Notes under the pieces: generated by a model
Seen by the model: only the letters and a program-made list of their open reading frames with translations
Told to the model about the DNA's origin: nothing
Database searches by the model: none
Assembly: GCA_033581555.1 (NCBI GenBank)
Contig: JAVQSZ010000002.1
Coordinates: 70,065-134,064 of the forward strand
Direction: 5' to 3'
From: Nitrososphaerota archaeon
GTDB lineage: Archaea; Thermoproteota; Nitrososphaeria_A; Caldarchaeales; Calditenuaceae
Length of the DNA: 64,000 bases
In this document: positions 24,285 to 59,346 of the stretch, piece by piece
Layout: the number at the start of each line of letters is the position of its first letter
Numbering within the stretch: position 1 is the first letter of the stretch
Program-made: the position numbers and the translations under genes

Positions 24285-25181
24285 TCAACGTGTGAAAGTC
24301 TGATGAGATACCTCGTAACGCGAGTACTTGATCATCCCGAGTCCCGCTGTCCTCTCGTCGCCGACGTTGAAGAGTTCCCCCAGCTTGAGAAGCGCATCGG
24401 TGAACCTCATGAAGGTCTCGGACATCAGCGAGTCTGAGGGTATTACGTAGTGGACCCTCCCCAAGAATCCGATGCTCGCCCCACCCCGTTTCAATGAGAC
24501 AGTCTTTATGCCCTTCGGATAGCCAGAGCACGCAACCCCCCCGGCCTTCAGCCACCTCCTGTACGCCTCATTAGGAACTGGCGTCTCGCCGAGGTTGGCA
24601 ACCCAGAAGTTAAGGAGGCTCACCAACAGCCTCTCAGGATCGGGGAACATCACGTTGCGCGGAGGAGCCAGCCACACTCGATCACCGCTTAGGCCCAGCA
24701 GATCGGACACGTCCCTCGGCGGCGCGGTAAACCTTGTGGGTGTGATGAAGCGTACCGCGAATCTGTTCACCGGGACTGACCTCTTCCAGAGCTCTCGAAG
24801 TTCTATCAATCTGAAGTCGATGGCCTCAACTTTGCACTCAGTTCCGTTGAATGAGACCTTGTTGAGCGCCATTATTCCTTTGCTGAGCGCTCCACTGAGT
24901 CGTTCACCGAGAGCAGTTACGTTGAAGTAGAAAATCTTCTCAGGAAGTAAATACCTGTACACGGGCTCCGCAGTTGCTGCATCGATCACCGGCGTGACAG
25001 AGTAGGGCGCCGGCTTATTTGTTGAGTGAATCTCGTCAGCCAAGCTACCGTCAACCGAGGACAATATATTGTAAAATAATCCCTGTACCGCGTATCCACT
25101 GTAATCTGAGAAAGTGATCGGCGCTCTGGTTTTGAACGAGATAGTGAACCTCGCGCACAATTCTTGGGAGTCGTATTTCAT
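24285..25181 (-). CDS. cas6: Cas6-like CRISPR RNA endoribonuclease (last gene of the type I-A cassette)
   Basis: 298 aa. Its position after cas8a and a C-terminal glycine-rich segment (KRGGASIGFLGRVHY) fit the Cas6 G-rich loop. The rest of the assignment rests on operon context. Confidence 0.55.
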   Translation of the reverse strand: MKYDSQELCARFTISFKTRAPITFSDYSGYAVQGLFYNILSSVDGSLADEIHSTNKPAPYSVTPVIDAATAEPVYRYLLPEKIFYFNVTALGERLSGALSKGIMALNKVSFNGTECKVEAIDFRLIELRELWKRSVPVNRFAVRFITPTRFTAPPRDVSDLLGLSGDRVWLAPPRNVMFPDPERLLVSLLNFWVANLGETPVPNEAYRRWLKAGGVACSGYPKGIKTVSLKRGGASIGFLGRVHYVIPSDSLMSETFMRFTDALLKLGELFNVGDERTAGLGMIKYSRYEVSHQTFTR

Positions 25182-26311
25182 ATCGCTCTGCTGAGTTTCC
25201 TTGCGATTCTCAGACTTCTCCTCTGAAGCATGTACAAATTGAAATCCTTGTCGCCTCTGTTAGGAAGTTTGTTCGTGTCCATCAACACCCAACGCATGAA
25301 CTCCCTGTCAACCGTGTATACGAACTCCTCATAAGGCTTGAGACCGTGTATGACCTCATAGAGGAGAACAGAATATCTGATCGCTGCGGCCCTCTCGGAG
25401 CCGCTGTTAGTCGCGTCCAGCGCCACCTCGAGGAGCCCATGGAAGTCGTCCGCCACCCCGTTACCGTCTATGATACCGCATCTTCTCAGCTCTGCGTAGG
25501 TCCGATCGAGTCTCATGGTCATCGAAGTGAAGATCGATGCTGGTGCGCTCCCCCCGGGCTCTCTAATCGCGTATACGGATACGCTCGTCGAGCGCATGAG
25601 GCTCGCCATCAGTAGGTGGAGTGCCGACTCGGGGAAGAGTCCCGCCAAACGTCCCTTTCTCTTACCTACATAAGTGCTTAGGTCCTTGTAGCCGGTTTGA
25701 TGCGAAATAATGCGCTCCGCGTTGATGGTGAAGCCCCTCTCCGTCGAGGACGTCAGCGGGGTCACCACGACCGTAACGTAGTCGTTCACTCCTACCAACG
25801 TCCTGCCTACCGCGCATCCGAGGTAACCGCATAACGCGAGCGCTATCGAAGATAATGGGTATTTTTTGCTTTTAATGAGGCCAGCCGTAGAATAGCCTGG
25901 AACCCTGTTGTGTTCATAGAACTCAGGCTTGAGTATTTCTATCAGTCTAAAATTTTCATTCGAGGACACGACGGAACGCAAATTGTCCTTCACCAGCTTC
26001 AAGAAAGAAAGGGCGTCTATCCCTTCATCTCGCTTTCCGAGTTCTCGCAATATCTCTACCATCACTTTCTTATCGTTCCCACTCATCGGCAGCCTGAGAG
26101 AGACCCCCTTACTCACCGATGCTTGCTTCTCTTCCAGAAGTTGTTCCACTGCTTCTAATGCGTTTTCTAAGGCCTTTACAGGTCTAGGACCGTCTACGAT
26201 TATTTCCGTAGGCGTTACGGTTATTCTGTACGCAGGGTCTAAATGGAACAATAATCCGAGTAGACAATCAGTAGCGAATTTGGGGAGAAGCTTTATTGTA
26301 AGCGTAGGCAC
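25178..26311 (-). CDS. cas8a: Cas8a-like large subunit candidate (Cas8a2/Csa4-type) of type I-A Cascade
   Basis: 377 aa with no clear motif. Assigned from its canonical position between cas3'' and cas6 in I-A cassettes and from its size; overlaps both flanking genes by 4 and 1 nt. Confidence 0.4.
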   Translation of the reverse strand: MPTLTIKLLPKFATDCLLGLLFHLDPAYRITVTPTEIIVDGPRPVKALENALEAVEQLLEEKQASVSKGVSLRLPMSGNDKKVMVEILRELGKRDEGIDALSFLKLVKDNLRSVVSSNENFRLIEILKPEFYEHNRVPGYSTAGLIKSKKYPLSSIALALCGYLGCAVGRTLVGVNDYVTVVVTPLTSSTERGFTINAERIISHQTGYKDLSTYVGKRKGRLAGLFPESALHLLMASLMRSTSVSVYAIREPGGSAPASIFTSMTMRLDRTYAELRRCGIIDGNGVADDFHGLLEVALDATNSGSERAAAIRYSVLLYEVIHGLKPYEEFVYTVDREFMRWVLMDTNKLPNRGDKDFNLYMLQRRSLRIARKLSRAI

Positions 26312-27129
26312 TAAACTTCACCTCCTAATGCGCTCTTCAGCTCCTCGATGAATTGAGTACGACTAGATGTCGATTCGTCGCTCCGCCTGCTCTCGGAAGC
26401 ATCTAGGTTGTCTCCTATCAATATCGGTAAGAGAATCAAAACATACCCCTTCAGCTTCTTTCTCCTGGTAGAATCTTCTTCAAAATTCGATATGCTTTTC
26501 ATCAGCTCTACGACTTCCTCAAAAGATATCTTCTCAGCTAGCGCTTCGTGAACGTGATAGGTCTCTATCCCCGTTCGTCTAGATATGTAATCGGACAAGT
26601 TGGAGAGATATTCTCTCTTGATATATCCACCGGTTTTTATCAAGTGGATAAACTTGTCGCGAATTTCTCTGTGCTCGCCGCTAAGATAAGTCACATCGAA
26701 CGTGAAAGCCTCTTTGAAGTTATCGAAAGTCCTACCCATGGCGTGCAGATGATCCAAAACAGCGAGAACAGTCAAGTGTGTGAGATCGCTCTTCTCTCCT
26801 AAACTGTCAAAAACTCTCTTAAGGTATACAGCTGAAAACACCTCATGTAGGTAGAAGCCAGACGCCCTTCCCTCTATAGGGGTGCAATCGTCTTCGTAAT
26901 TGACTTGGTATGCTTCGATAGCCTTTCCTACGTCATGAAACACGCCGGCGATCATAATACTCTGCTTGATCTCCTCGGGCGAGGTCCCTATACCTAAGAC
27001 TCTGAGGCGTCCCGAAACAGTCTCGTGGTAGCCGTTATCGATTATCTTCTCAACATATTTCAGGACTCCTTCGGTGTGTCGTATCAGCGATTGACCTCTA
27101 TAAGCACACGGCTTGCAGTCGGTCACCAC
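26311..27129 (-). CDS. cas3'': Cas3'' HD nuclease domain protein (split Cas3, type I-A)
   Basis: 272 aa. HD-domain metal motifs H..(GVFHDVGK) and downstream His (DHLHAMG); a standalone HD gene immediately after a DExH helicase gene. Confidence 0.75.
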   Translation of the reverse strand: MVTDCKPCAYRGQSLIRHTEGVLKYVEKIIDNGYHETVSGRLRVLGIGTSPEEIKQSIMIAGVFHDVGKAIEAYQVNYEDDCTPIEGRASGFYLHEVFSAVYLKRVFDSLGEKSDLTHLTVLAVLDHLHAMGRTFDNFKEAFTFDVTYLSGEHREIRDKFIHLIKTGGYIKREYLSNLSDYISRRTGIETYHVHEALAEKISFEEVVELMKSISNFEEDSTRRKKLKGYVLILLPILIGDNLDASESRRSDESTSSRTQFIEELKSALGGEV

Positions 27130-28796
27130 TGCATACCTACCTCCTCATCATAGCCTTCTAAAATTACCGCTGCTATGTTATTCATCACGAATTGCTTCGA
27201 TAGGCAGTCCGCTCTCGATGACAGTCTGATGTCTTTACGCCGCACAATTTCCTTTGACTCGGTGACGAACTCCTTGATCCGCTCGGAGTCGAACAGCCTC
27301 CAAAATTCTTCGTCTCCTATCGTGAATATTAGATTAATTCGCTCCTGAGGGTTCTTTACGAAGGTATCCGCGTATGCTCTGGGAACGACCGGAATCATCT
27401 CTCCCTCACGAACGAACCCACAATAAGCCTCCCACACTTTTACAGCAACCCTTGCAGAGAGGGATGGATAAAAGTCCACCAGCCTCAGCTGATAGAGCAG
27501 GCTCCTGTCTACGAGCCGGGTTTCAACGTAATCGTCATAAACCTCGAGTAGTGCGGTAGACAACTCTCTCATCCCCAGGAGCTTTCGAAGGGTCTTCTCA
27601 ACCAGCTCTTCGGCGTACACACTCTTTCCGCCCTCGCTCAGTGGATATATGAGCACCTTACCAGATCCGCCTTTCCTCGCTACTCTACCGGCCCTCTGAA
27701 TGAGCGAGTCTGGTGGAGCGGCCTCGGTTATCAGAGCGTCGAAGCTCATGTCTACGCCCGCTTCAAAAATCTGTGTGGCTACAACAACGCACGGCCCTCT
27801 CTCTACTTCGGAAAGCCTCCGTCTTCTCTCGGCCTCAATCATCTTCGCGTGAAGTATTACAGGCTTGATCCCTTCCTTCTGCAAGGACCTGTAAATCTCA
27901 ATCGCGTTTCTTACCGTATTGGCGATAACTAATACGCGGCTGAACCTCCTCGCGGCTTCAACTATCTGACTTAATTTATCCTCTTCTCCCACTATTTCTA
28001 CATCGATCTGTCTTTTAACAAATCCAAGATCAGATTGTGAAGGCATTATCTCTTTTATGAGTGAATCCTCTAACACTCTTTCGACCTCTTCTTTTATTTT
28101 GTTTTTAATTAGTTGAGGCATCGTCGCTGTAGATATTATAACGGGAACTCCCATTTCTAGTAAGCCTATTATGCTTGTAATCGCAGAAGTTAACATTTTG
28201 CTTCGCCCATTCACAATAGAATTCGAGCTTACAAAGAGGTGAAATTCATCGAAGACTACTGTCGCGGAGTAAATGCAGCCCCTAGGCACCTCATAGTGAG
28301 CGTAGCCCTTAGTAAAGAGTTTCTTTAATTCTACCGGAGGGATCTTATATAATGAAGAGACGAACGTATCGAGGGTTGTGATGACGAACCTCTTACATAA
28401 CATAGGACTTCCCGGAGAGCTCATCTGTTGAAGGCCTACTTCATCCCCAGCCAGTGGAAGCCCGGTTTCACTCAATCTCCCCACATAATCCCGCATCCTC
28501 TTCAGCATGTGTGTCCCTATCGAGCGCATAGGTAGGACGTGTATCACCCTCTGCCCTAAGTCAGCCCTCCCTTGTTTAATTGCGGCGTAAATGGTGAGAG
28601 AGAGGGTACTCTTGCCGTAGCCCGTTGGGGCCTCAAGAAAGATAAGAGTCCTCGACTCCTCTCTTACCCCCTCTTCAAGGGCTGAGAGGGTCTTTTCTAA
28701 CAAGGGCCTCGCGTCTCCGTTGAAGAGTTTGCGGCTGATGTCCTGATAGACCTCACTCAAAGACTGCGAGCCCATCATCCCCCACCCTGTAAGCAT
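27123..28796 (-). CDS. cas3': Cas3' DExH helicase (split Cas3, type I-A)
   Basis: 557 aa. Walker A EAPTGYGKST, DExH box VVFDEFH, motif VI QRAGRVARKG. The start may be a slightly internal Met, since the ORF overlaps cas5 by 44 nt. Confidence 0.8.
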   Translation of the reverse strand: MLTGWGMMGSQSLSEVYQDISRKLFNGDARPLLEKTLSALEEGVREESRTLIFLEAPTGYGKSTLSLTIYAAIKQGRADLGQRVIHVLPMRSIGTHMLKRMRDYVGRLSETGLPLAGDEVGLQQMSSPGSPMLCKRFVITTLDTFVSSLYKIPPVELKKLFTKGYAHYEVPRGCIYSATVVFDEFHLFVSSNSIVNGRSKMLTSAITSIIGLLEMGVPVIISTATMPQLIKNKIKEEVERVLEDSLIKEIMPSQSDLGFVKRQIDVEIVGEEDKLSQIVEAARRFSRVLVIANTVRNAIEIYRSLQKEGIKPVILHAKMIEAERRRRLSEVERGPCVVVATQIFEAGVDMSFDALITEAAPPDSLIQRAGRVARKGGSGKVLIYPLSEGGKSVYAEELVEKTLRKLLGMRELSTALLEVYDDYVETRLVDRSLLYQLRLVDFYPSLSARVAVKVWEAYCGFVREGEMIPVVPRAYADTFVKNPQERINLIFTIGDEEFWRLFDSERIKEFVTESKEIVRRKDIRLSSRADCLSKQFVMNNIAAVILEGYDEEVGMQW

Positions 28797-29586
28797 CGTG
28801 CCTCTCAGCCAACTTGATCCTCATCCAGCAGCTCGAGACCGGGTCCCTACTGCCCGGGATGATGTATTCTTCCGTCTCAGGCTCACCGACCCATCGGTAG
28901 TCAAGCGCCCAGAAGGACTCCGTATAAACACCTGATAGGGCGTACGGTCCGCCTCCGTATTCTAAGACGTCTTCCACCAGCCTCTTAGGGTGGTAGAAAC
29001 GGGTTCTATACTCCCGTCCGATCATTACGGCCTTCCTGAGGTCTGCCTGCTCGACCGAGACGATGCCCTCTTTTGAGCCGAGAGCTGTAATCGAGTTAGC
29101 CGCCACGAGTAGCTTGTGCTCCCAGTCTTTCCCGAGCTTCTCCTCAGCTAGCTCCTCCTTGACGAGCAGGCCTAACGTTAACAATCCCGAGGGCATGTAG
29201 ATTTTACCCGTGGGAACGACGTTGAACCTGTACAGTGGGTCCCCCCGCCTACTGGGCCTCTGGAACTGCAGGATTTGATATCTCACTATGTCCTCCCAGT
29301 ATTTTCCGACGCGTTTCTCTCCGCCTTCCTCTTCCACGAAGAACGCAGATGCCGAAGCGAAGATGTCCTTATAGAGTTCTGCGCTCGATCCAATCACCGC
29401 CTTCCCCATCTGTGATACGGTGATAAGTTCTCCTGTCTTGCCCATCACGCACAATGGCTTTGATATCGCTCCGATGATCGTTGTTGGTGGGGGAGGTGAG
29501 GAGTAGGCGTGCTGGACTTTCGATACTAGGGGGGTCTTGACGCTGAAACCCCAACATAGTCTGAGATCGATCGTCAAGCTCATCAT
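28753..29586 (-). CDS. cas5: Cas5 (Cas5a, type I-A)
   Basis: 277 aa. N-terminal Cas5 signature ...AYSSPPPPTTIIGAISKPL (PPP[ST]TI[IV]G), glycine-rich loop. Confidence 0.75.
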   Translation of the reverse strand: MMSLTIDLRLCWGFSVKTPLVSKVQHAYSSPPPPTTIIGAISKPLCVMGKTGELITVSQMGKAVIGSSAELYKDIFASASAFFVEEEGGEKRVGKYWEDIVRYQILQFQRPSRRGDPLYRFNVVPTGKIYMPSGLLTLGLLVKEELAEEKLGKDWEHKLLVAANSITALGSKEGIVSVEQADLRKAVMIGREYRTRFYHPKRLVEDVLEYGGGPYALSGVYTESFWALDYRWVGEPETEEYIIPGSRDPVSSCWMRIKLAERHDAYRVGDDGLAVFE

Positions 29587-29596
29587 GGTTGATCTA

Positions 29597-30619
29597 CTAT
29601 TTGCCTTGTGTGACCAGATTCATGATGTCTTCGAAAACGTCCTCGAGCGTTTCGTGTTTTGAGACGCCGGCGGGGACGCTCAACCCCTCTCTATTCACGC
29701 ACCATACTTTGACTTCATGACCTGTTAGCGCCAAGTACTTCTGCGCCCTCTTCCACGTCCTCTCAACGTAGTCGGTGTAGTTCCCTGGAGAGACAGTGAA
29801 GGAGTCACGAGATAGCGCGAGCACGGAAGACCTAAGCTCGATGTTGGGGAAGAACCTCGACCTCTTCCCGCCATAGGAGTTGTTGGTAAGCAGCTTCAGG
29901 AGCGCGATCAGAGCGGCCTTTCTCCTATTGGGGATCGAATTGCTTAGTTCTTGTTTTTTCTTCTCCAATTCATCGCGCGCTCCCTTTGGAGTTTCCCCGA
30001 AAACGTTAGATGGTACGCCGATTCCTGCTAAGTCGAGGTTTAGGTTAAGCGTGTATACAGAAGAGGCTATCTCGACGTTATACGGGATCTGACCGAGTTT
30101 GGCGTCTTTCCCAGCCTGCGAGAACAGGTAGCGAACGTGAAACTCAGCCTCCATCGCGGTGGCGTTAAGCACGTCCTGGATAGCTGGGATCATGTATCCG
30201 ACCTGAAAGCGGGATGTTCGTTTAACTGGGATATCACCAGTGTAAAGGAACCCGCCTACGTCGGCTACAATGTCTTTCAATAGAACGTCTATTTCGAACC
30301 TCATGATGTCCTCGTGGCTCTTCGGCGGCTTGACACCCTCTTCCGTAAGATAGCTGTCCTCAGAGAACTTGATGAACTCGTTTCTGGATGAGAATACGCC
30401 TACAGGCAATTTCATAGATTTCGCTACGTCGACTAACAGAGCCTGATATCCGTGGGCTATTGATTCTCCGGAGACTGCTGGCACGTATTTCAGGGTGTAG
30501 CCGTCGTGCTGTGGGATCACCATCGGTACAGTTCGATGCCTCGACAGGTTGCCGACGGTCTCGACCGAGTTGAGGGCCTCGACGTTCATCAAGCACCTCA
30601 AGGATATGCTGAGGAACAC
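29597..30619 (-). CDS. cas7: Cas7 (Csa2) backbone subunit, type I-A
   Basis: 340 aa. N-terminal MNVEALNSVETVGNLSRHR and overall RAMP pattern typical of Csa2. Confidence 0.75.
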   Translation of the reverse strand: MFLSISLRCLMNVEALNSVETVGNLSRHRTVPMVIPQHDGYTLKYVPAVSGESIAHGYQALLVDVAKSMKLPVGVFSSRNEFIKFSEDSYLTEEGVKPPKSHEDIMRFEIDVLLKDIVADVGGFLYTGDIPVKRTSRFQVGYMIPAIQDVLNATAMEAEFHVRYLFSQAGKDAKLGQIPYNVEIASSVYTLNLNLDLAGIGVPSNVFGETPKGARDELEKKKQELSNSIPNRRKAALIALLKLLTNNSYGGKRSRFFPNIELRSSVLALSRDSFTVSPGNYTDYVERTWKRAQKYLALTGHEVKVWCVNREGLSVPAGVSKHETLEDVFEDIMNLVTQGK

Positions 30620-30620
30620 C

Positions 30621-31067
30621 TCACTTCACCTCGCCCTGTTGAGCCGAAGGGGCTCTCAATCTCGACTCCACCAGTATCGCCGAGGCATACGCACCGATCT
30701 TCCTGGCAAGCGATGTATCGCTCTGAACCTTATCGATGAATTCCCTAACCATCTCGCTGCTGGGGAGGTGTCCCACGATCTGAAAGACACCGATTTCGTC
30801 CTGCACCTCGACGACCCGATACTCCCGCCCAGTGGTCGTTGTCTTAGTGCCAACCCTAAGTCTCCGTTCACTCTCGGATCGCGCTAGCTCGCTGTCTACG
30901 AGCCTCAGCGAGTCCCGTATAGTTCGAACCGCGGGCTCGGGGTTTAGCGCGTTAGCCATCCTGTCGATCATCGAGGGCGAACCGCTCAGAGCAGCAGCTG
31001 TAGCCAGGAGGACAGCGATCGGTCTGAACCCTTCTAGATCATGTTGAGGAGACTTACTCCCTGTCAT
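30621..31067 (-). CDS. csa5: Csa5 (Cas11 small subunit, type I-A)
   Basis: ORF track 30621..31130. The first 21 codons lie in AT-rich promoter-like DNA and would overlap csa3. The internal Met at 31067 gives a 148 aa alpha-helical protein, typical Csa5 size, immediately upstream of cas7. Confidence 0.6.
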   Translation of the reverse strand: MTGSKSPQHDLEGFRPIAVLLATAAALSGSPSMIDRMANALNPEPAVRTIRDSLRLVDSELARSESERRLRVGTKTTTTGREYRVVEVQDEIGVFQIVGHLPSSEMVREFIDKVQSDTSLARKIGAYASAILVESRLRAPSAQQGEVK

Positions 31068-31119
31068 GCGAGCCAAAAATATACAAGATGGTATATAAGA
31101 TTTATTCACCCGGAAAGGA
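31068..31119. promoter_or_regulatory. Divergent csa5/csa3 promoter region with a shared symmetric TATATA element
   Basis: AT-rich 52 nt spacer gagccaaaaatatacaagatggtatataagatttattcacccggaaaggA. TATATAAG at 31093-31100 lies 20-27 nt upstream of the csa3 ATG (31120). On the other strand it lies about 26-31 nt upstream of the csa5 ATG (31067). Both spacings suit leaderless archaeal transcripts. Confidence 0.4.
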
Positions 31120-31839
31120 ATGCATTCCATCTACTTGAAACAGATAAAAGCCTTATTACGGCTTAGTGAAACCATAGAGTCGATGATTTTAGCGGTCACG
31201 CTGGGCTTCGACGAGAAGTTCGCGGTCAGGGCCGTCATTCGGCACTCACACTCACGGCTGACCCGCATCGTGGTGATAACGCCTGCGCTTAGGGCGGATG
31301 AACGCACGGAGGCGGCGATTGGATCTCTGAGGGAGTTCCTGAGGAGATACCTCCAGATCGAGGACGTCGAGAGGGTTGAGGTGAGCGTGGACGACTGTTT
31401 CGACGCCGTCGGCGAACTCGTTGGAATGTTCGACTCGTGGGCAGGAGACGCCGTGACCCTCAACTTAAGCGGCGGAATGAGGCTCCTCGTGATCGAGTGT
31501 CTGATCGGCGCGCTGATGAGCAGGACACTTATGACCATCGAACTGGAGAGCGAAGACGGTTCGGCTTACTTTAGTTTCGGGAACGATTACTTCGATCCAG
31601 CCGTTTTCAACGAAATCGACCATATAGACAAACTGATTCTGAAATATCTAACTAACAAATGTTCCGCGTCTTCGTTGTCGAAGTTGTTGGATCTCCCCAA
31701 GTCTTCTGCTTGGAGGAGGGTAAGGAAACTTGAGAGGCTCGGGCTCGTCGAGGTGGAAAGGGTGGGCAGGTCTCTTGCGGTGAGGCCTACCGACAAAGGA
31801 AGAGTGCTGAGAAGCATCATGCGCGACCTACACCGCTAA
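31120..31839 (+). CDS. csa3: Csa3: CARF-domain + winged-HTH CRISPR-associated transcriptional regulator
   Basis: 239 aa. N-terminal Rossmann-like CARF (ILAVTLGFDEKFAVRAV, VVITPA, VTLNLSGGMRLLVIECL). C-terminal wHTH (LILKYLTNK...LSKLLDLPKSSAWRRVRKLERLGLVE). The alternative start at Met22 is 31183. Confidence 0.7.
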   Translation: MHSIYLKQIKALLRLSETIESMILAVTLGFDEKFAVRAVIRHSHSRLTRIVVITPALRADERTEAAIGSLREFLRRYLQIEDVERVEVSVDDCFDAVGELVGMFDSWAGDAVTLNLSGGMRLLVIECLIGALMSRTLMTIELESEDGSAYFSFGNDYFDPAVFNEIDHIDKLILKYLTNKCSASSLSKLLDLPKSSAWRRVRKLERLGLVEVERVGRSLAVRPTDKGRVLRSIMRDLHR

Positions 31840-31866
31840 CGCTTAGAGTTGAAGCCGAGCCCCCGC

Positions 31867-32286
31867 TCAATCGAGTTTCTGGACGACGTCGTGAACGATG
31901 ACGTTGGTCTTGTCGCCGATGCGCGTTATAGTGGCCTTAGCGATGAAGGCACTCCCGCGTTTGATCAGACCCACAGGGCCGTAGTAGTTAGTGGATTCGA
32001 GCCTTGCCATGAACCGGTCGTTGACCTTTACCACCGCGAACCCCTTGTAAACACGCTCCACCTCGACCTTTAGGAGCCTCCCTCCAGCGAACCTCGACCT
32101 CACCGCGGACGATGCGACGTACCTGCCCCTCACTTTCACCACCCTCCTCGACCTCATTAAGCCCCTGAGGACTGACCGGGCCCTAGAGGGCTCGAGTTCG
32201 AGCTCCTGCGCGACGTCCTCCAGCGTCATCCCTGCCCTGCCTGCGGTCAGGAGAAGCATGTACACCTCCTTCGTAAGGGAGGTCAT
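31867..32286 (-). CDS. Hypothetical protein: N-terminal winged-helix + C-terminal beta-rich domain
   Basis: 139 aa. MarR-like wHTH (VYMLLLTAGRAGMTLEDVAQELELEPSRARSVLRGLMRS). The C-terminal ~70 aa is predicted beta-rich (LLKVEVERVYKGFAVVKVNDRF...). Lower-GC codon usage like the cas genes. Confidence 0.45.
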   Translation of the reverse strand: MTSLTKEVYMLLLTAGRAGMTLEDVAQELELEPSRARSVLRGLMRSRRVVKVRGRYVASSAVRSRFAGGRLLKVEVERVYKGFAVVKVNDRFMARLESTNYYGPVGLIKRGSAFIAKATITRIGDKTNVIVHDVVQKLD

Positions 32287-32415
32287 CTCTCAACAAGTGG
32301 ACTAGTCGTTAAAATAGGTCTACTTCGTCCGGATTTACCGAATGCAACTTTAGAAGACGTATGGAATGTTTTACTATATCCTTACTGGAATAATATGTCT
32401 CAACATATAAGCCAT

Positions 32416-33315
32416 CTACTTTTTTAGGACTACGGAACTTTTTCCATCCCTGTGCTCAGGAGTATCATTGATCAGAACACGGTAGCCACGACGGGATGTC
32501 GTCTGTACTGGTAATTTGTCTTTATCCAACCGTTTAGTTTCAAGCAACCACTCTGCACATCTGGTCAATATATCTTTCCACACTCTAATTTCATACTCCT
32601 TACCGTCAGGGAATCTTATCGACTTGTAACGTAACGGTTCTCCTTTCTTGGGTTTAAGTTCACTTAGCGGTAGACCTTTCCTGTCACGATAAGGAGGCGC
32701 AATTACGGTAGGAGGAGGACTGCCTATGCCGGCGTACCTCATTATCGAAAAGGCGTTCCTGATGACTTCGCCCGGCTCCATCTTCCTTATGTCCCATTCT
32801 GCGATCTTCTTTTCATGCAGAGGCTTCTGCACTTGGGTGTCATAGACCTCCCACTTCGCCCCATCGGTCGCGATGAAGTATCTCACTCCCTCCGACACGC
32901 AGTATGACACCTGCTGAATCAAGTCCTCCTCCTTCCCCAGGCTCTTAGCACCTATGAACGCGATCCTCTGGCCGTTCAGCAGAAGCGCGTAGTCAGGTCT
33001 TCCGGCCTGAGTGGAGACTTCGGGTATGACGAGGTTCGGGTCTTCGGTGTCCCAACCTAGCGCCCTCAGGAAGGGGTCGATGAGCACGTACCTTGTCAGG
33101 GTCTCGCTTTTCTGTAACATGTCACGGTGACTTTCGATTTTCATTCTAAGCTGCCTGACGAGATCAACGAGTCCTTCAAGCGCCACAATCCTAATTTTAA
33201 AATCATAAATATATACTTTATGGGAAATAATTTGTAGGACCGACTGTCGATGTGCGAAACCTAAGTTTACGCTCCTCAATTGAGGCTGCTTTACCGCTAC
33301 GCGACCCTCCAACAT
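32416..33315 (-). CDS. HsdR_N-like (type I restriction enzyme R N-terminal / Mrr-like PD-(D/E)xK) domain protein with uncharacterised C-terminal domain
   Basis: HsdR_N pattern SETLTRYVLIDPFLRALGW...GRPDYALLL...IAFIGAKSLGKEE...GVRYFIATDGAKWEVYD. The C-terminal ~110 aa is K/R-rich and unknown. Start uncertain: Met1 at 33315 would overlap the hef 3' end by ~100 nt; the internal Met at 33144 gives 243 aa. Low-GC island codon usage. Confidence 0.5.
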   Translation of the reverse strand: MLEGRVAVKQPQLRSVNLGFAHRQSVLQIISHKVYIYDFKIRIVALEGLVDLVRQLRMKIESHRDMLQKSETLTRYVLIDPFLRALGWDTEDPNLVIPEVSTQAGRPDYALLLNGQRIAFIGAKSLGKEEDLIQQVSYCVSEGVRYFIATDGAKWEVYDTQVQKPLHEKKIAEWDIRKMEPGEVIRNAFSIMRYAGIGSPPPTVIAPPYRDRKGLPLSELKPKKGEPLRYKSIRFPDGKEYEIRVWKDILTRCAEWLLETKRLDKDKLPVQTTSRRGYRVLINDTPEHRDGKSSVVLKK

Positions 33316-35403: not shown

Positions 35404-35808
35404 TCAGAGGCCGACGTAGTGCAGCTTCACGTGCTCCCTCATCAGCTCCCCGTAGGGCGTGGCATAGCCACAGTGGGGACAGACGTGAAGACCAGGGTCG
35501 GCCGGACCTGCCGTGCTCAGCGCGAGCCTGACCTCTTCAGGGTTGAGCACGACCACCCTCAGCCTCTCGCCGTCGGACTCCACCTTGCAGTGCTCCGAGA
35601 CGCTCAACTCCCCTAGGGCGTCCCGAACGAGGCCGAGGAGGGCGGCCTGGCTCGGCCTCGACCAGCTGACCGAGAGGTCTATCGCGACCGACCCCTCCCT
35701 GGGGACCGCGATCCCGCCCAACTCAACAAGGCGCTCGGTGAGCCTCGCCGCGAGGGGGACCTCGAGCCCCCTGAAGCCCACGACGACGACGTAGACGACG
35801 TCCCTCAA
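35404..35808 (-). CDS. Hypothetical protein with C-terminal C2H2-type zinc-finger-like motif
   Basis: 134 aa; C-terminal CPHCGYATPYGELMREHVKLH (C-x2-C...H-x4-H). No other recognisable motif. Confidence 0.35.
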   Translation of the reverse strand: MRDVVYVVVVGFRGLEVPLAARLTERLVELGGIAVPREGSVAIDLSVSWSRPSQAALLGLVRDALGELSVSEHCKVESDGERLRVVVLNPEEVRLALSTAGPADPGLHVCPHCGYATPYGELMREHVKLHYVGL

Positions 35809-36359
35809 GTCCCGGTCACCCGCGGAGCTGAAGTCTTCATTTGGGAGAAGATCACCCTCAGCCTTTCGACGCCGCCGATGCTCCTGATGTACTCCGCGAC
35901 CTCGGGCTGGACGTAGTCCTCCCAGGGCCCTCCCTCGACCATCAGCCTCCTGATCTCGGTCCCGTTGAACCTCTCCCTCTCGAAGAGCTGGGGCTCCCTC
36001 ACCCTGATCCCCGAGGACTCCGCCAACAGCTTTACGAAGGGGTTGTTGGTGTAGAGCGCCTCGAACTTGGGCACCGTGGCTACCACCCTGCTGATCCAGA
36101 GATGGTGCTCTCCGATGTCCGGCACCGGGACCGGAATCACCCTCGAGAGGTCGTGTCCCGCGCTCTTCAGGCCTATGCGGATCATCTCGATCCTCTCACC
36201 CGCGGTGAAGGGGTTGTCGGGCGTGTAGCTGAACTGGGAGCTCCCTATAGCGACTATGAGCTCGTCGTTCTCCGATAGTGCTTGTTCAGCGGCCCTGAGG
36301 TGTCCGAGGTGAAACGGCTGGAACCTCCCGACCAGCAGCCCCCGCTTCGGTATCGCCAA
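35805..36359 (-). CDS. nadM: Nicotinamide-nucleotide adenylyltransferase, archaeal type
   Basis: 184 aa. VGRFQPFHLGHL (HxGH nucleotidyltransferase motif in the archaeal NMNAT context), later ISRV. Confidence 0.85.
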   Translation of the reverse strand: MAIPKRGLLVGRFQPFHLGHLRAAEQALSENDELIVAIGSSQFSYTPDNPFTAGERIEMIRIGLKSAGHDLSRVIPVPVPDIGEHHLWISRVVATVPKFEALYTNNPFVKLLAESSGIRVREPQLFERERFNGTEIRRLMVEGGPWEDYVQPEVAEYIRSIGGVERLRVIFSQMKTSAPRVTGT

Positions 36360-36469
36360 CCCGTGCCGTCGTAGCGGCGACTCTCTAATTAACGGAACAC
36401 CGGTCCTTCCTTCGACCGATCCGGGACCACAAAACTATTAACGCCCCCCAAATCGCGTGCTAGAGGCGC

Positions 36470-36889
36470 ATGTCGACCACTTACGAGGTGCCCAGCGGGC
36501 TGAGCTACTCTAGGAACCACGAGTGGGTCAGGCAGAAGGGCAAGTACGCGGTGATCGGGGTCACGGACTACGTCCAGAAGAAGCTGCGGGAGATACTCTA
36601 CGTGGAGCTCCCGAACATCAACACCAAGCTCACCAGAGGCCAGCACCTCGCGACGATCGAGTCGGTCGGGGGGAGCCACGAGGTGAGGGCCCCGGTCAGC
36701 GGGAAGATAGTTGAGGTGAACGCGAGGCTCATCGACAGCCCCGAGCTGATCAACGAGTACCCCTACGAGGACGGTTGGATCTGCAGGATGGAGGTCTCGG
36801 ACCCGACGGAGCTAGAGGACCTGATGCAGCCCGACGAGTACACTAGATACATCGAGGAGCTTGAGCTGGAGGCTAGCGAGACCGAGTGA
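36470..36889 (+). CDS. gcvH: Glycine cleavage system H protein family member lacking the canonical lipoyl-lysine
   Basis: 139 aa. Classic GcvH pattern (YSRNHEWVR..., AVIGVTDYVQKKL, DPYEDGWI). The lipoylation motif is ESVGGSHEV instead of ESVKA, with Gly in place of the Lys. Confidence 0.7.
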   Translation: MSTTYEVPSGLSYSRNHEWVRQKGKYAVIGVTDYVQKKLREILYVELPNINTKLTRGQHLATIESVGGSHEVRAPVSGKIVEVNARLIDSPELINEYPYEDGWICRMEVSDPTELEDLMQPDEYTRYIEELELEASETE

Positions 36890-36904: not shown

Positions 36905-37885
36905 TCACGCCGTTAAAGCAGAGATCACCCTCAGCGGCGTCCTCATTATCGAGACGAAGCCCTCGAGCTTGATGCCCCTCGCGATCCCGAAGAGCTCCTC
37001 CACCTCTCCTGGAGTCAGAGGCACGTCGGCGGAGTGCGCGTTGAGCTCGGCCTGTTGGGGCGTCTTCACGCCCGCGATCGCGACGACCTTGTCCCTCTCC
37101 ACGAGGGCCCTCAGCGCGATCTGTGAGACCTCGCACCCGTACTTCCTCGCCAGCTCCCTCATCCTCTCCAGCAACGGCTCGACCCTGCGGAGGTTGGTCC
37201 CGTCGAAGAGCCTGTTGATGCTCCTCACTAGGTCCCTGGGCCTGTTGACGGCCGAGTACTTCCCCGTCAGGAGGCCCTGCGCCAGGGGACTGTAGGCGAG
37301 GACCGTCACCCTCTCGCCGAAGGCCCTGAAGTTGCTCTCCGCCGCTCCCCTCTCCAATAAATTGTACTTCACCTGGTTCGAGACGATCTCCGCAGACCTC
37401 AGGTGCTCCTGGGCCTTTGCGAGCAGTCGCGGTGGGAAGTTGCTGACGCCGACGTACCTGATCTTCCCCTCCCTCAACAGCCTGTCCATCGCCCTCATCG
37501 TCGACGATATCGGGACGAACGGGTTCGGCCAGTGGACCTGATAGAGGTCTATGACGTCCACCCCGAGCCTCTTCAGGCTCCGCTCGCAGGCCTTGATCGT
37601 CCCGTCGTAGGTGGCATGGGTCGGCCAGACCTTCGTCGCTATGAGGACCGAGTCCCTCATCCCCTTGATCGCCCTCCCGACCACCTCCTCTGACCTTCCG
37701 CCGCCGTAGATCTCCGCGGTGTCGATCAGGTTGACCCCGAGCTCGATCGACCTCCTTATGGCCTGGATCACCTCCTCCTCTCCGTAGCCCCTCCCCCAGC
37801 CCCACTCCCTGCTCCCGATCTGCCAAGTCCCGACGGCGATCACCGAGACCCTCTCGGACGACCTCCCGAGAGTCGTGTACCTCAC
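36905..37885 (-). CDS. Aldo/keto reductase
   Basis: ORF track 36905..38356. The first 157 codons are R/G-rich low complexity overlapping the upstream membrane-protein gene. The conserved AKR N-terminus VRYTTLGRSSERVSVIAVGTWQIG starts at a GTG at 37885. Later IDTAEIYGGG and GVSNF. Confidence 0.8.
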   Translation of the reverse strand: MRYTTLGRSSERVSVIAVGTWQIGSREWGWGRGYGEEEVIQAIRRSIELGVNLIDTAEIYGGGRSEEVVGRAIKGMRDSVLIATKVWPTHATYDGTIKACERSLKRLGVDVIDLYQVHWPNPFVPISSTMRAMDRLLREGKIRYVGVSNFPPRLLAKAQEHLRSAEIVSNQVKYNLLERGAAESNFRAFGERVTVLAYSPLAQGLLTGKYSAVNRPRDLVRSINRLFDGTNLRRVEPLLERMRELARKYGCEVSQIALRALVERDKVVAIAGVKTPQQAELNAHSADVPLTPGEVEELFGIARGIKLEGFVSIMRTPLRVISALTA

Positions 37886-45919: not shown

Positions 45920-46609
45920 ATGAGCGTCCCGGAGAAGCAGGAGGTGCTGGTCGTGAACGGCTGCGCTCTGCCGAGGATGGCCCTCTACGACCTCGAGAAC
46001 GAGAGCTGGTACCTCGAGGAGGACGACGTCATCAGGGTTGGGGTGCTCCCCACCACGCAGACGAAGTGGGGCAAAGTTACCTCCGTGAGGCCCAAGACCC
46101 CAGGGACCGTCGTTGAGGAGGGGAGGTCGCTGGCGTTCGTCGAGGCTAAGAAGTTCGTGGGACGCGTCAACGCGAGGTTCAAGGTCGAGGTCTTGGAGGC
46201 GAACCGAGAGCTCCTCGAGGTCCCGCACCTCTGCCAGTCCGATCCCTACGGACGTGGATGGATCGTCGAGGTTAGGCCGCTCGAGGCAGGGTACAGGGAG
46301 AGGCTCAGGACGTTCGACGAGGCAGCGGACGTCCTCCGCGAGGAGATCAGGAGCAGGGGGATCATGTGCTTCAGGGAGGTCCCGGACGTCGTGATGGCGG
46401 CCCTGGGGGTCGAGTGCAGCCAGGCGCTGCTAGTCCTGGCCGACGCGATAAGGCATGTCCCTCCGGGGCAGGTGATCCACTTGGTCGCTGAGGCCGACGA
46501 GAACGCTGAGCGGGAGGTCAGGGCCTGGGCGAGGGTCACCGGCAACGAGCTCCTCGAGTTCGCGCTGGAGGGCAGGCTGGCTCACGCGTTGATCAAGAGG
46601 CGTGGGTGA
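45920..46609 (+). CDS. Fusion protein: GcvH-like lipoyl-domain fold (Lys retained) + TusA/SirA-like C-terminal domain
   Basis: 229 aa. The N-terminal ~125 aa follows the GcvH pattern (FVEAKKFVGRVNARFKVEVLEAN..., SDPYGRGWIVEV). The C-terminal ~90 aa resembles the TusA two-layer fold (GIMCFREVPDVVMAAL...LVAEADENAEREVRAWARVTGNEL) but with C-x4-P instead of CPxP. Confidence 0.4.
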   Translation: MSVPEKQEVLVVNGCALPRMALYDLENESWYLEEDDVIRVGVLPTTQTKWGKVTSVRPKTPGTVVEEGRSLAFVEAKKFVGRVNARFKVEVLEANRELLEVPHLCQSDPYGRGWIVEVRPLEAGYRERLRTFDEAADVLREEIRSRGIMCFREVPDVVMAALGVECSQALLVLADAIRHVPPGQVIHLVAEADENAEREVRAWARVTGNELLEFALEGRLAHALIKRRG

Positions 46610-58965: not shown

Positions 58966-59346
58966 GTGATGTCGGAGGGCGATGACATCGAGCTGAGGCT
59001 GATCAGGTTGAGGAGGCTGAGTAGGCTGATGGCCTCGAGGGTGGCCCAGGAAGCGAAGACCGTCGATGACAAGAGGTCGGCCGTCGAGGAGCTGAAGGCT
59101 CATTTGGACGAGAGGGGGATCGAGGTGTTGGAGGAGGCCCGAGAGCTGAACCCGACTTTGGCCGAAAGAGTCGCGGAAGCGCTGCTGAACGCCGTGAGGG
59201 GCGGGAGGCTCGAGTCGCCCATCGATGCCGGCGCTCTCCTAAGGCTCTTCAGGTCATTAGGCCTCCCGGTCAGGCCATCGACGTCCGTTAAGGTCCTCAA
59301 GGACGGAGAGGTCAAGGACCTCAGCAAGTACCTCGCGGAGCGCTAA
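58966..59346 (+). CDS. PDCD5/TFAR19-like dsDNA-binding protein homologue
   Basis: 126 aa. Pattern EAK...EE....ILE.AREL.P..AERV...L........G.L...I....L..L parallels the PDCD5-family helical bundle. Confidence 0.45.
   Translation: MMSEGDDIELRLIRLRRLSRLMASRVAQEAKTVDDKRSAVEELKAHLDERGIEVLEEARELNPTLAERVAEALLNAVRGGRLESPIDAGALLRLFRSLGLPVRPSTSVKVLKDGEVKDLSKYLAER

What the first reader, a model, noticed from the sequence alone, without database searches (positions are those of the whole stretch)
36470..36889. GcvH paralogue with the lipoyl-lysine replaced by glycine
The protein aligns position by position with glycine-cleavage H proteins. Where H proteins have ESVKA followed by the second conserved ...PVSGEI... 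motif, it reads TIESVGGSHEVRAPVSGKIVEVN. It has no lysine at the lipoylation site and so cannot carry lipoate. No gcvT/gcvP genes are nearby; the neighbours are NMNAT and an aldo/keto reductase. This suggests a non-catalytic or regulatory/carrier role distinct from glycine cleavage.
Basis: seen in the sequence. Interest (0 to 1): 0.55.

Follow-up and report, generated by a model that had tools for sequence, protein, structure and literature searches.

The report
Lysine-less H-protein kept by selection
A hot-spring archaeal family (Calditenuaceae) keeps, under strong purifying selection, a glycine-cleavage H-protein whose lipoate-carrying lysine has been replaced (Gly here, Arg in sister genera), so this universal "swinging-arm" carrier must have a job here that needs no arm.

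Summary
Window 36470..36889 (+) encodes a 139-aa protein that scores as GcvH above curated cut-offs and models as a near-perfect H-protein fold. The lipoyl-lysine at the hairpin tip is Gly67 (codon GGG).

It is not an error or a decaying gene:
- Four species carry Gly, written with three synonymous codons.
- The genus Calditenuis carries Arg (AGG).
- The Lys-less sequences form one clade (200/200 bootstraps) nested among Lys-bearing Caldarchaeales GcvH.
- dN/dS is 0.04-0.18.
- The protein is more conserved than its neighbours.

The arm-docking residues next to the lysine changed too (E. coli Ser67 to His/Tyr, Tyr70 to Arg). The fold, the HEW motif, Glu(-3) and Gly(+11) are kept.

"Paralogue" is not supported. 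It looks like the family's relocated orthologue.

No gcvT/gcvP lies in the 64 kb, but Lys-bearing relatives also lack such neighbours.

Best reading: a lipoylation-dead "pseudo-carrier" that works by binding a partner. The partner is unknown.

I could not test whether GCS or lipoylation genes exist elsewhere in the genome.

Side finding: a Calditenuaceae-specific GcvH-like/TusA fusion lies 9 kb away and also lacks a conserved lysine.

Public annotation calls all of these plain GcvH.

The parts
36470..36889 (+). Lys-less H-protein gene (139 aa plus stop), full-length GcvH fold
   Evidence: ORF. Pfam and NCBIfam GcvH hits above cut-off. AF2 model pLDDT 96.1. TM 0.96 to Thermus H-protein. dN/dS 0.04-0.18.
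36668..36670 (+). Codon 67 (GGG, Gly) at the position of the lipoyl-lysine. It is GGC, GGC and GGA in three related species, AGG (Arg) in Calditenuis and AAA/AAG (Lys) in outgroups.
36671..36688 (+). Codons 68-73 (G-S-H-E-V-R), the remodelled strand after the hairpin tip. These are the equivalents of E. coli A65, A66, S67, D68, I69 and Y70. Arg73 (AGG) replaces the near-universal Tyr/Phe (TAC/TAT/TTC), a change at all three codon positions that is shared by the Gly and Arg sublineages.
   Evidence: Role of the E. coli residues from PMC7733448.
36431..36441 (+). A/T-rich box AAAACTATTAA about 30-40 nt upstream of the ATG. It is conserved in the four Gly-type species and is a candidate archaeal TATA element (inferred, not tested).
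   Evidence: Intergenic alignment. The bacterial-type promoter/terminator scan finds nothing, as expected for an archaeon.
35805..36359 (-). Divergent neighbour: archaeal nicotinamide-nucleotide adenylyltransferase (context, not shown to be functionally linked)
   Evidence: TIGR01527 192.5 vs 181.2 bits. Adjacent in all Gly-type loci.
36905..37885 (-). Convergent neighbour: aldo/keto reductase. It is the one neighbour conserved next to the Lys-less gene across the whole family (context).
   Evidence: Pfam Aldo_ket_red 1.5e-66. Synteny.
45920..46609 (+). Second GcvH-fold protein of the same genome: a GcvH-like domain fused to a TusA-like domain. It is restricted to Calditenuaceae and has no conserved lysine at the canonical position. 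It is a separate gene, listed because it bears on the interpretation.

Best explanation
This is the Calditenuaceae version of the glycine-cleavage H-protein. It lost its lipoate attachment lysine in the ancestor of the family. The most parsimonious path is Lys (AAR) to Arg (AGG), kept in Calditenuis, then Arg to Gly in the lineage that includes this genome.

Shown here: the protein cannot be lipoylated at the canonical site. The residues that dock the loaded lipoyl arm on the strand after the lysine were replaced at the same time. The rest of the H-protein (fold, HEW motif, Glu at -3 and Gly at +11 around the former lysine) is kept under strong purifying selection.

Inferred: the protein no longer shuttles aminomethyl groups or relays lipoyl groups. 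It works as an arm-less 'pseudo-carrier', a small binding module that still docks onto a partner which recognises the H-protein surface. It would act as a structural, regulatory or adaptor subunit, in the way plant BADC proteins (BCCP homologues without the biotinyl-lysine) act on acetyl-CoA carboxylase.

The partner is not identified. Candidates are any T or P protein or lipoylation enzyme encoded elsewhere in the genome, or a lineage-specific partner.
For: Identity and missing lysine. Fold intact: pLDDT 96.1 and TM 0.96 to Thermus H-protein.

Not an accident:
- Gly67 is written GGG, GGC, GGC and GGA in four species. Arg is AGG across Calditenuis.
- The Lys-less clade is monophyletic in 200/200 bootstraps, with Gly and Arg subclades each at 200/200. 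It is nested among Lys-bearing Caldarchaeales GcvH.
- dN/dS is 0.04-0.10 within the Gly type and 0.11-0.18 within the Arg type. This is no higher than the 0.10-0.23 measurable among Lys-bearing relatives.
- The protein is more conserved than its neighbours: 85% vs 65-84% identity to L003, and 74% vs 52-66% to Calditenuis.

Co-ordinated remodelling shared by both sublineages: Y/F73 to R (three nucleotide changes), position 70 to H/Y, A35 to V, E23 to K. In E. coli, Ser67, Asp68 and Tyr70 are the residues that hold and release the aminomethyl-lipoyl arm (PMC7733448).

Kept: E64, S65, G78 and the HEW motif are invariant or nearly so across 18 to 66 homologues.

The gene looks like an orthologue rather than an extra copy. 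It is the nearest relative of the K-type GcvH of sister families, and no K-type stand-alone copy was seen from Calditenuaceae assemblies. The PDCD5-like gene that precedes K-type gcvH elsewhere sits at window about 59032-59343 without a gcvH beside it.

Literature: within the family only the genus Calditenuis has a lipoylated E2 (DBT), and it was acquired later from a Thermus-like source (PMC12979851). This fits an ancestor with little or no use for lipoate.

Precedent for arm-less carrier homologues acting as regulators: BADC (10.1101/634550).
Against: - No partner is identified and no binding was tested.
- I could not scan the rest of the genome, so I do not know whether GcvT, GcvP, Lpd, lipoate ligase or lipoyl synthase genes exist in these organisms. 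Only 64 kb here and about 10-20 kb in relatives were searched.
- Conserved Glu(-3) and Gly(+11) may simply be structural.
- One Calditenuis contig carries Lys at the site (P0022, AGG to AAG, nested inside the Arg clade). The position therefore tolerates Lys, and the Arg/Gly identity itself may not matter.
- The gene is monocistronic, with a convergent downstream neighbour, so operon context gives no functional partner.
Confidence: 0.55

Rival explanations
1. BADC-like decoy beside a working system. The genomes also encode a normal Lys-bearing GcvH and the T/P/L proteins elsewhere. The Lys-less protein is then a true paralogue that competes with the real H-protein and down-regulates glycine cleavage or the lipoyl relay.
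For: H-protein surface and recognition residues are conserved. The BADC precedent applies. Calditenuis has a lipoylated E2 and so must have some lipoylation machinery (PMC12979851).
Against: The word-indexed search of 5.8 billion proteins returned K-type relatives only from other families or assemblies (Caldarchaeaceae, Wolframiiraptoraceae-type and others). None came from the assemblies that hold the Lys-less gene. The tree places the Lys-less clade as the family's branch of the Caldarchaeales GcvH tree. No gcvT/gcvP lies in any fetched Calditenuaceae DNA.
Confidence: 0.15
2. Neofunctionalised ligand- or modification-bearing protein. The remodelled hairpin (R/G67, H/Y70, E71, R73) would form a new site, possibly linked to NAD metabolism. 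The gene sits next to NMNAT in Gly-type genomes, next to nicotinate phosphoribosyltransferase in Calditenuis, and opposite an NAD(P)H-dependent aldo/keto reductase in all.
For: Two different NAD-salvage genes are the immediate upstream neighbour in the two sublineages. Arg73 was fixed through a three-nucleotide change. There is a precedent for an NAD-dependent modification of an H-like protein: GcvH-L with SirTM (PMC4518038, listed; known to me, not re-read here).
Against: Positions 67 and 70 are not invariant (R/G/K and H/Y), which is poor for a catalytic or ligand site. No sirtuin, macrodomain or ligase is nearby. The NMNAT gene is divergent rather than co-transcribed. The adjacency argument is post hoc and rests on two arrangements. 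There are no PADLOC matches.
Confidence: 0.12
3. Evolutionary relic: a gene that lost its function with the lysine and is drifting towards loss.
For: The defining residue is gone and the position varies (G/R/K). No GCS genes are nearby.
Against: dN/dS is 0.04-0.18 at dS up to 1-2. The length is a constant 139 aa with no frameshifts in about 29 sequence clusters. The protein is better conserved than flanking genes. The Gly codon is synonymously diversified. The upstream A/T box is conserved.
Confidence: 0.04
4. Still a working lipoyl carrier through a non-canonical attachment site, or the Gly is an assembly or sequencing artefact.
For: None beyond the overall GcvH similarity.
Against: There is no lysine in or next to the hairpin tip. 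The same state is seen in independent assemblies and samples with different synonymous codons.
Confidence: 0.02

Closest known systems
Canonical glycine-cleavage H-protein (GcvH; PF01597, TIGR00527; e.g. pea 1HPC, E. coli 3AB9, Thermus 1ONL)
   Same: Same length class, same fold (TM 0.92-0.96), 38-42% identity. HEW motif, ESV motif, Gly(+11) and the PYxxGW motif are all kept. It scores above the curated GcvH cut-offs.
   Different: The lipoyl-lysine is Gly (Arg in the sister genus). The arm-docking residues equivalent to E. coli Ser67 and Tyr70 are His/Tyr and Arg. No gcvT/gcvP lies in 64 kb.
Lys-bearing GcvH of other Caldarchaeales (Caldarchaeum, Geocrenenecus/Wolframiiraptoraceae-type and unnamed MAGs)
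   Same: Nearest relatives (53-63% identity), with a similar acidic C-terminal helix. They are also not next to gcvT/gcvP.
   Different: They keep ESVK and Tyr/Phe at +6. They sit in a conserved pair with an Arcadin_1-domain gene, after a PDCD5-like gene. The Lys-less gene has left that locus.
Plant BADC proteins (BCCP homologues lacking the biotinyl-lysine; negative regulators of heteromeric acetyl-CoA carboxylase)
   Same: A swinging-arm carrier homologue of the same barrel-sandwich-hybrid superfold that has lost the modified lysine yet is conserved. This is a functional analogy only (10.1101/634550).
   Different: Different family, cofactor and kingdom. BADC coexists with a functional BCCP, whereas here no functional GcvH copy was found. 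Binding to a partner is shown for BADC and not shown here.
LbpA (GcvH-like lipoate-binding protein of the sHdr sulfur-oxidation system)
   Same: A GcvH homologue used outside glycine cleavage. A TusA link exists in the same genome through the separate fusion protein (PMC6067878).
   Different: LbpA has a strictly conserved lysine and usually two conserved cysteines, and is encoded in shdr clusters. The protein here has no such lysine, one non-conserved Cys (C105, Gly type only) and no hdr genes in the window.
GcvH-L of the SirTM/macrodomain operon (Streptococcus, Staphylococcus; 5A35)
   Same: An H-like protein with a role outside glycine cleavage. The NAD connection is a speculative parallel.
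   Different: GcvH-L is lipoylated and encoded with LplA2, SirTM and Macro. Structural similarity is much weaker (TM 0.72, 21% identity). No such genes are here.
Other sporadic Lys-less GcvH-like proteins in databases (uncharacterised)
   Same: About a dozen of the 150 nearest 50%-identity clusters lack Lys at this column. One example is P0099 (Thr), an orphan gene beside the rpsF operon of a bacterium.
   Different: They are unrelated lineages, mostly single clusters or tandem-domain proteins. I found no paper describing any of them.

Membership tests
GcvH (glycine cleavage system H protein) | H-protein sequence and fold (PF01597 / TIGR00527) | tested here: met
   Pfam 6e-38 over the full profile. 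NF002270 142.6 vs 117 bits and TIGR00527 124.5 vs 115.85 bits. AF2 pLDDT 96.1. TM 0.96 and rmsd 0.7 A to 1ONL.
GcvH (glycine cleavage system H protein) | Lipoyl-lysine at the tip of the ESVK hairpin | tested here: not met
   Gly67 aligns with the lysine of the pea, Thermotoga, mouse and E. coli H-proteins. In the clade the position is G or R, with one K variant.
GcvH (glycine cleavage system H protein) | Cavity residues that hold and release the aminomethyl-lipoyl arm (E. coli Glu12, His13, Glu14, Ser67, Asp68, Tyr70; PMC7733448) | tested here: not met
   N16, H17, E18, H70, E71 and R73. The His and second Glu are kept, while the Ser67 and Tyr70 equivalents are replaced in the whole clade.
GcvH (glycine cleavage system H protein) | Recognition determinants for lipoylating enzymes: Glu three residues before and Gly eleven residues after the lysine (Fujiwara et al. 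1991/1996; my own knowledge, not re-read here) | tested here: met
   E64 is nearly invariant and G78 invariant in the alignments.
GcvH (glycine cleavage system H protein) | Works with GcvT, GcvP and Lpd encoded in the same genome | not testable with these tools
   None was found in the 64-kb window or in flanks of related loci (tblastn; Pfam).
LbpA (sHdr-associated lipoate-binding protein) | Strictly conserved lysine, two conserved cysteines, location in an shdr/lipoate-ligase cluster (PMC6067878) | tested here: not met
   No lysine. One Cys (C105) that is Phe/Tyr in Calditenuis. No hdr, dsrE or ligase genes in the window.
GcvH-L (SirTM/Macro/LplA2 operon) | Lipoylated H-like protein encoded with a class-M sirtuin, a macrodomain and LplA2 | tested here: not met
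   No lysine and no such neighbours. 5A35 is only a distant structural match.
TIGR03077 'not_gcvH' (chlamydial H-like protein) and NF045810 GcvH_rel_desulf | Score above the model cut-off | tested here: not met
   62.6 vs 144.05 bits and 32.7 vs 150 bits.
Arm-less carrier homologues ('pseudo-carriers', BADC type) - functional class, not a sequence family | Carrier-protein homologue that lacks the modified lysine but is conserved by selection | tested here: met
Arm-less carrier homologues ('pseudo-carriers', BADC type) - functional class, not a sequence family | Binds the enzyme that normally uses the carrier and alters its activity | not testable with these tools
   No partner identified. No multimer modelling or experiment is available here.

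The most novel reading that the evidence does not exclude
The H-protein fold has a lipoate-independent cellular function in Caldarchaeales, and Calditenuaceae have committed to it. The family carries two arm-less GcvH-fold proteins: this stand-alone one and the family-specific GcvH-like/TusA fusion with three conserved cysteines, which lies next to a rhodanese gene in one genus. Together they would form a previously unrecognised adaptor or relay system, for example for sulfur or cofactor trafficking, in which the H-fold serves as a docking module rather than a cofactor carrier.
Probability: 0.15. Interest if true: 0.75.

Novelty: new variant of a known kind. Interest (0 to 1): 0.5.

Why it matters
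The lipoyl-lysine is treated as the defining, universally conserved residue of H-proteins. All known roles of GcvH and its relatives (glycine cleavage, lipoyl relay, LbpA, GcvH-L) depend on it.

A whole archaeal family that replaced the lysine yet keeps the protein under strong constraint is a natural experiment. It isolates whatever H-protein does without lipoate.

It can be tested directly, because a Calditenuis species (Arg type) has now been cultivated and has proteome data (PMC12979851).

There is also a practical consequence. NCBI, JGI and the curated NCBIfam GcvH models (NF002270, TIGR00527) all call these proteins "glycine cleavage system protein GcvH". Automated metabolic reconstructions of Calditenuaceae will therefore wrongly count a working H-protein.

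Tried and rejected
1. Sequencing or assembly error. Rejected: independent samples and species, three synonymous Gly codons.

2. Pseudogene. Rejected by dN/dS and conservation.

3. Ancestral retention of Lys in P0022. Rejected: it differs from L005 by 10 nt and is nested in the Arg clade, so it is a reversion or a variant.

4. Search for GcvT/GcvP. I took bacterial GcvT and GcvP from gcvH-linked loci and ran tblastn against the window and 37 archaeal loci. There were no hits.

5. Pfam annotation of about 55 window ORFs for lipoate ligase, lipoyl synthase, GCS or Hdr genes. None found.

6. Whole-genome presence or absence of GCS and lipoylation genes could not be obtained. The Calditenuaceae papers do not mention glycine cleavage or lipoate. 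Their supplements are not held. The per-species table of PMC10332631 is cut before this taxon. I left one homologous-protein search unused, because no query close enough to a Caldarchaeales GcvT or LplA was available and the top-120 list would have filled with bacterial hits.

7. dN/dS comparison with Lys-bearing relatives. Most pairs are saturated at synonymous sites, so this gives only a rough check.

8. The closest bacterial relatives (Aquificota) were checked for an sHdr/LbpA context. None was found. Instead the locus has GcvH, a YdjM gene and a BPL_LplA_LipB ligase-family gene.

9. Defence-system models (PADLOC): no match.

10. Rfam, tandem repeats and bacterial promoter/terminator scans around the gene: nothing relevant.

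11. Literature searches for natural Lys-less GcvH: none found in the held library.
Full report
**Observation.** Window 36470..36889 (+) is a 139-codon ORF starting at ATG.
- It matches Pfam GCV_H over the whole profile (E=6e-38).
- It scores above the curated cut-offs of the NCBIfam GcvH models: NF002270 142.6 vs 117 bits, TIGR00527 124.5 vs 115.85 bits.
- phmmer against PDB sequences gives an ungapped 125-residue alignment to pea H-protein in which VESVKATSDV pairs with IESVGGSHEV. The Thermotoga, mouse and E. coli H-proteins give the same register.
- The lipoyl-lysine position is therefore Gly67, codon GGG at 36668-36670.
- An AlphaFold2 model built on 66 homologues has mean pLDDT 96.1. It places residues 66-67 at the turn between strands 59-65 and 68-73. 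Foldseek superposes it on Thermus, pea, E. coli, bovine and human H-proteins at TM 0.92-0.96.

Archaeal NMNAT lies divergently at 35805..36359 (TIGR01527, 192.5 vs 181.2 bits) and an aldo/keto reductase lies convergently at 36905..37885.

**Whose gene it is.** The identical protein is annotated in MAGs named Candidatus Calditenuaceae archaeon, e.g. GCA_025058175.1. Calditenuaceae is a family of the Caldarchaeales (formerly Aigarchaeota) with five genera (PMC12979851).

**How widespread the state is.** I aligned the 120 best homologues from a 5.8-billion-protein collection.
- The three closest clusters (85-100% identity) have Gly at the site, as does genome locus L002 (ESIGG).
- About 25 clusters at 71-75% identity have Arg (ESVRGSYEVRSP or ESVRASHEVRSP). 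These are Calditenuis sequences (L004 is JGI OTU-1; L005 is Calditenuis sp.).
- One has Lys.
- Every relative at 63% identity or lower has Lys, with one exception.
- At the DNA level Gly67 is GGG, GGC, GGC and GGA in four species. Arg67 is AGG in all Calditenuis loci read. Outgroup Lys is AAA or AAG.
- A neighbour-joining tree recovers the Lys-less sequences as one clade in 200/200 bootstraps. The Gly and Arg subclades each get 200/200. The clade is nested among Lys-bearing Caldarchaeales GcvH, and its sister is the Lys-bearing P0028 in 93/200 bootstraps.
- The single Lys sequence (P0022) differs from a Calditenuis locus at 10 of 420 nucleotides, has the Calditenuis gene context and sits inside the Arg subclade. 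It is a reversion or a variant, not an ancestral survivor.
- At nucleotide level the cheapest history is Lys to Arg once in the family's ancestor, then Arg to Gly.

**Selection.**
- Pairwise Nei-Gojobori dN/dS is 0.04-0.10 among Gly-type genes (dS 0.34-1.7) and 0.11-0.18 among Arg-type genes.
- This is not higher than the few unsaturated comparisons among Lys-bearing relatives, which give 0.10-0.23.
- The protein is better conserved than almost all flanking genes. Against L003 it is 85% identical, compared with 65-84% for eight neighbours. Against Calditenuis it is 74%, compared with 52-66%.
- Length is constant at 139 aa.
- An A/T-rich box (AAAACTATTAA, 36431-36441) about 30-40 nt upstream of the start codon is conserved in the four Gly-type species. 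This fits an archaeal TATA element, but it is untested.
- The gene is functional. It is neither a relic nor an error.

**What changed and what did not.** I compared 29 Lys-less with 91 Lys-bearing sequences.
- The non-conservative clade-wide shifts are K67 to R/G, Y/F73 to R, E23 to K and A35 to V. Position 70 becomes His or Tyr.
- Arg73 (AGG) differs from the outgroup Tyr/Phe codons at all three positions and is shared by both subclades. The strand after the lysine was therefore remodelled before they split.
- Using the E. coli alignment, positions 70, 71 and 73 correspond to Ser67, Asp68 and Tyr70. Simulation and mutagenesis identify these as the residues that hold and release the aminomethyl-lipoyl arm, together with Glu12, His13 and Glu14 (PMC7733448).
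- His17 and Glu18 (the His13 and Glu14 equivalents) are kept.
- Also kept, invariant or nearly so across 18 to 66 homologues, are E64-S65 before the former lysine, G78 eleven residues after it, and the structural core.
- From my own knowledge (Fujiwara and co-workers, 1991/1996; not re-read here), Glu(-3) and Gly(+11) are the determinants recognised by lipoylating enzymes.
- In short, the arm and its docking groove are gone. The body of the H-protein, and possibly its recognition surface, is preserved.

**Genomic context.**
- The gene is monocistronic. Across the family the conserved neighbours are downstream on the opposite strand: aldo/keto reductase, a small hypothetical protein, a penicillin-amidase-family protein and DUF996.
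- Upstream is NMNAT, divergent, in all Gly-type loci. In all Calditenuis loci it is nicotinate phosphoribosyltransferase (NF006415, 540 vs 243 bits) on the same strand, 223 bp away. Two different NAD-salvage genes next to the same small gene is suggestive, but it is post hoc and rests on two arrangements.
- No GcvT or GcvP homologue is in the window or in any fetched Calditenuaceae locus. Pfam annotation of about 55 window ORFs shows no lipoate ligase, lipoyl synthase, Lpd or Hdr genes.
- This absence says little. Lys-bearing GcvH genes of other Caldarchaeales are not next to gcvT/gcvP either. They sit in a conserved block: PDCD5-like gene, gcvH, Arcadin_1-domain gene, CDP-alcohol phosphatidyltransferase.
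- In the window the PDCD5-like gene is at about 59032-59343, beside an FAD-linked oxidase, as in those relatives, but with no gcvH next to it. The Lys-less gene thus looks like the family's orthologue moved to a new place, not an added paralogue.
- No Lys-bearing stand-alone GcvH from an assembly that holds the Lys-less gene was found. This search is not exhaustive.

**A second arm-less H-fold protein.**
- At 45920..46609 (+), 9 kb away, lies a 229-aa protein with a GcvH-like domain (Pfam 9.6e-21) fused to a TusA-like domain.
- Only ten clusters of it exist in the 5.8-billion-protein collection. Every one that carries an organism name is from Calditenuaceae, including Calditenuis fumarioli and HR02.
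- At the canonical lysine column, three members have Lys and seven have Arg. No lysine is conserved.
- Three cysteines are conserved, including the TusA-type one.
- In HR02 the gene directly follows a rhodanese / 3-mercaptopyruvate-sulfurtransferase-like gene.
- So this family uses the H-fold twice without a conserved lipoyl-lysine.

**Literature.**
- Within Calditenuaceae only the genus Calditenuis has a branched-chain 2-oxoacid dehydrogenase with a lipoylated E2 (DBT), acquired by its ancestor from a Thermus-like source. The other genera lack it (PMC12979851).
- Caldarchaeum subterraneum, which has a Lys-bearing GcvH, encodes LipB and LipA (PMC3904984; PMC10332631 supplement).
- This fits a family ancestor with little use for lipoate, but it does not prove it.
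- I found no paper describing a natural Lys-less GcvH.
- LbpA proteins have a strictly conserved lysine (PMC6067878).
- An exhaustive phmmer search of 1.84 billion cluster representatives shows that Lys-less GcvH-like proteins occur sporadically elsewhere, in about a dozen of the 150 nearest clusters. One is a Thr variant that is an orphan gene beside the rpsF operon of a bacterium. The phenomenon is broader than this family and appears to be uncharacterised.

**Interpretation.**
- Shown: a full, well-folded H-protein without the lipoyl-lysine, fixed in a whole family, under strong purifying selection, with co-ordinated loss of the arm-docking residues.
- Inferred: it cannot act as the aminomethyl shuttle or as a lipoyl relay, and therefore acts by binding. 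I commit to an arm-less 'pseudo-carrier' that docks onto a partner recognising the H-protein surface, analogous to plant BADC proteins. Confidence is about 0.55.
- Rivals:
  - a true decoy beside a working GCS encoded elsewhere (0.15);
  - a new ligand or modification site, perhaps NAD-linked (0.12);
  - a relic (0.04);
  - a cryptic carrier or an artefact (0.02).

**Main gap.** I could not scan the rest of the genome for GCS and lipoylation genes. That scan, together with proteomic detection and an in vitro lipoylation test, would decide between these readings.

**Verdict.** This is a new variant of a known kind and of moderate interest. It also corrects public annotation, which names all these proteins plain GcvH.

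Noticed in passing
window 45920-46609 (+); also L003 11896-12633, L101 10001-10678: GcvH-like domain fused to a TusA-like domain. Only ten clusters were found in 5.8 billion proteins, and every cluster that carries an organism name is from Calditenuaceae. The canonical lysine column is K in 3 and R in 7 members. Three cysteines are conserved. In HR02 it directly follows a rhodanese-type sulfurtransferase gene. It looks like an undescribed sulfur-trafficking fusion.
   Followed up: partly
window 35805-36359 (-); L073 8569-9777 (+): The Lys-less gcvH has a different NAD-salvage gene as its immediate upstream neighbour in the two sublineages: NMNAT in Gly-type genomes and nicotinate phosphoribosyltransferase in Calditenuis. 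An NAD(P)H-type aldo/keto reductase is convergent downstream in all. This may be meaningful or may be chance.
   Followed up: partly
L075 6735-7555, L078 8001-8756, L082 8001-8771, L085 6001-6780, L095 3562-4346: In other Caldarchaeales the Lys-bearing gcvH is always followed by a small Arcadin_1-domain gene and preceded by a PDCD5-like gene. It is never next to gcvT/gcvP. This is a conserved but unexplained gene pair.
   Followed up: no
window 24285-33315: A type I-A-like cas gene cluster (Cas6, HD nuclease, Cas3 helicase, Csa2/DevR, Csa5, Csa3) plus an HSDR_N-domain gene. The block is absent from the otherwise syntenic relative L001, so it is an inserted or lost island. No CRISPR array is in the window.
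   Followed up: partly
P0099 / L102 8001-8381; P0131, P0133, P0151, P0153, P0157, P0168 and others: Lys-less GcvH-like proteins occur sporadically in unrelated lineages, in about 12 of the 150 nearest 50%-identity clusters. They include tandem-domain proteins and a Thr variant that is an orphan gene beside the ribosomal rpsF-ssb-rpsR operon of a bacterium.
   Followed up: partly
L100 6-425 (JGI metagenome 3300038414): One Calditenuis contig has Lys (AAG) where all other Calditenuis sequences have Arg (AGG). It is nested inside the Arg clade, so it is either a natural reversion or a sequencing variant. Read depth could not be checked.
   Followed up: partly
L012 10001-11725: In the closest bacterial relatives (Aquificota MAGs, 155-159 aa with long acidic tails) gcvH is followed by a YdjM gene and a 260-aa BPL_LplA_LipB-family ligase gene, not by gcvT/gcvP.
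   Followed up: no
window 35404-35808 (-): A conserved 134-aa protein with no Pfam, NCBIfam or PADLOC match and a C-terminal CPHCG...H..H zinc-finger-like motif. It overlaps the NMNAT gene by 4 bp and is conserved in all Gly-type loci.
   Followed up: no
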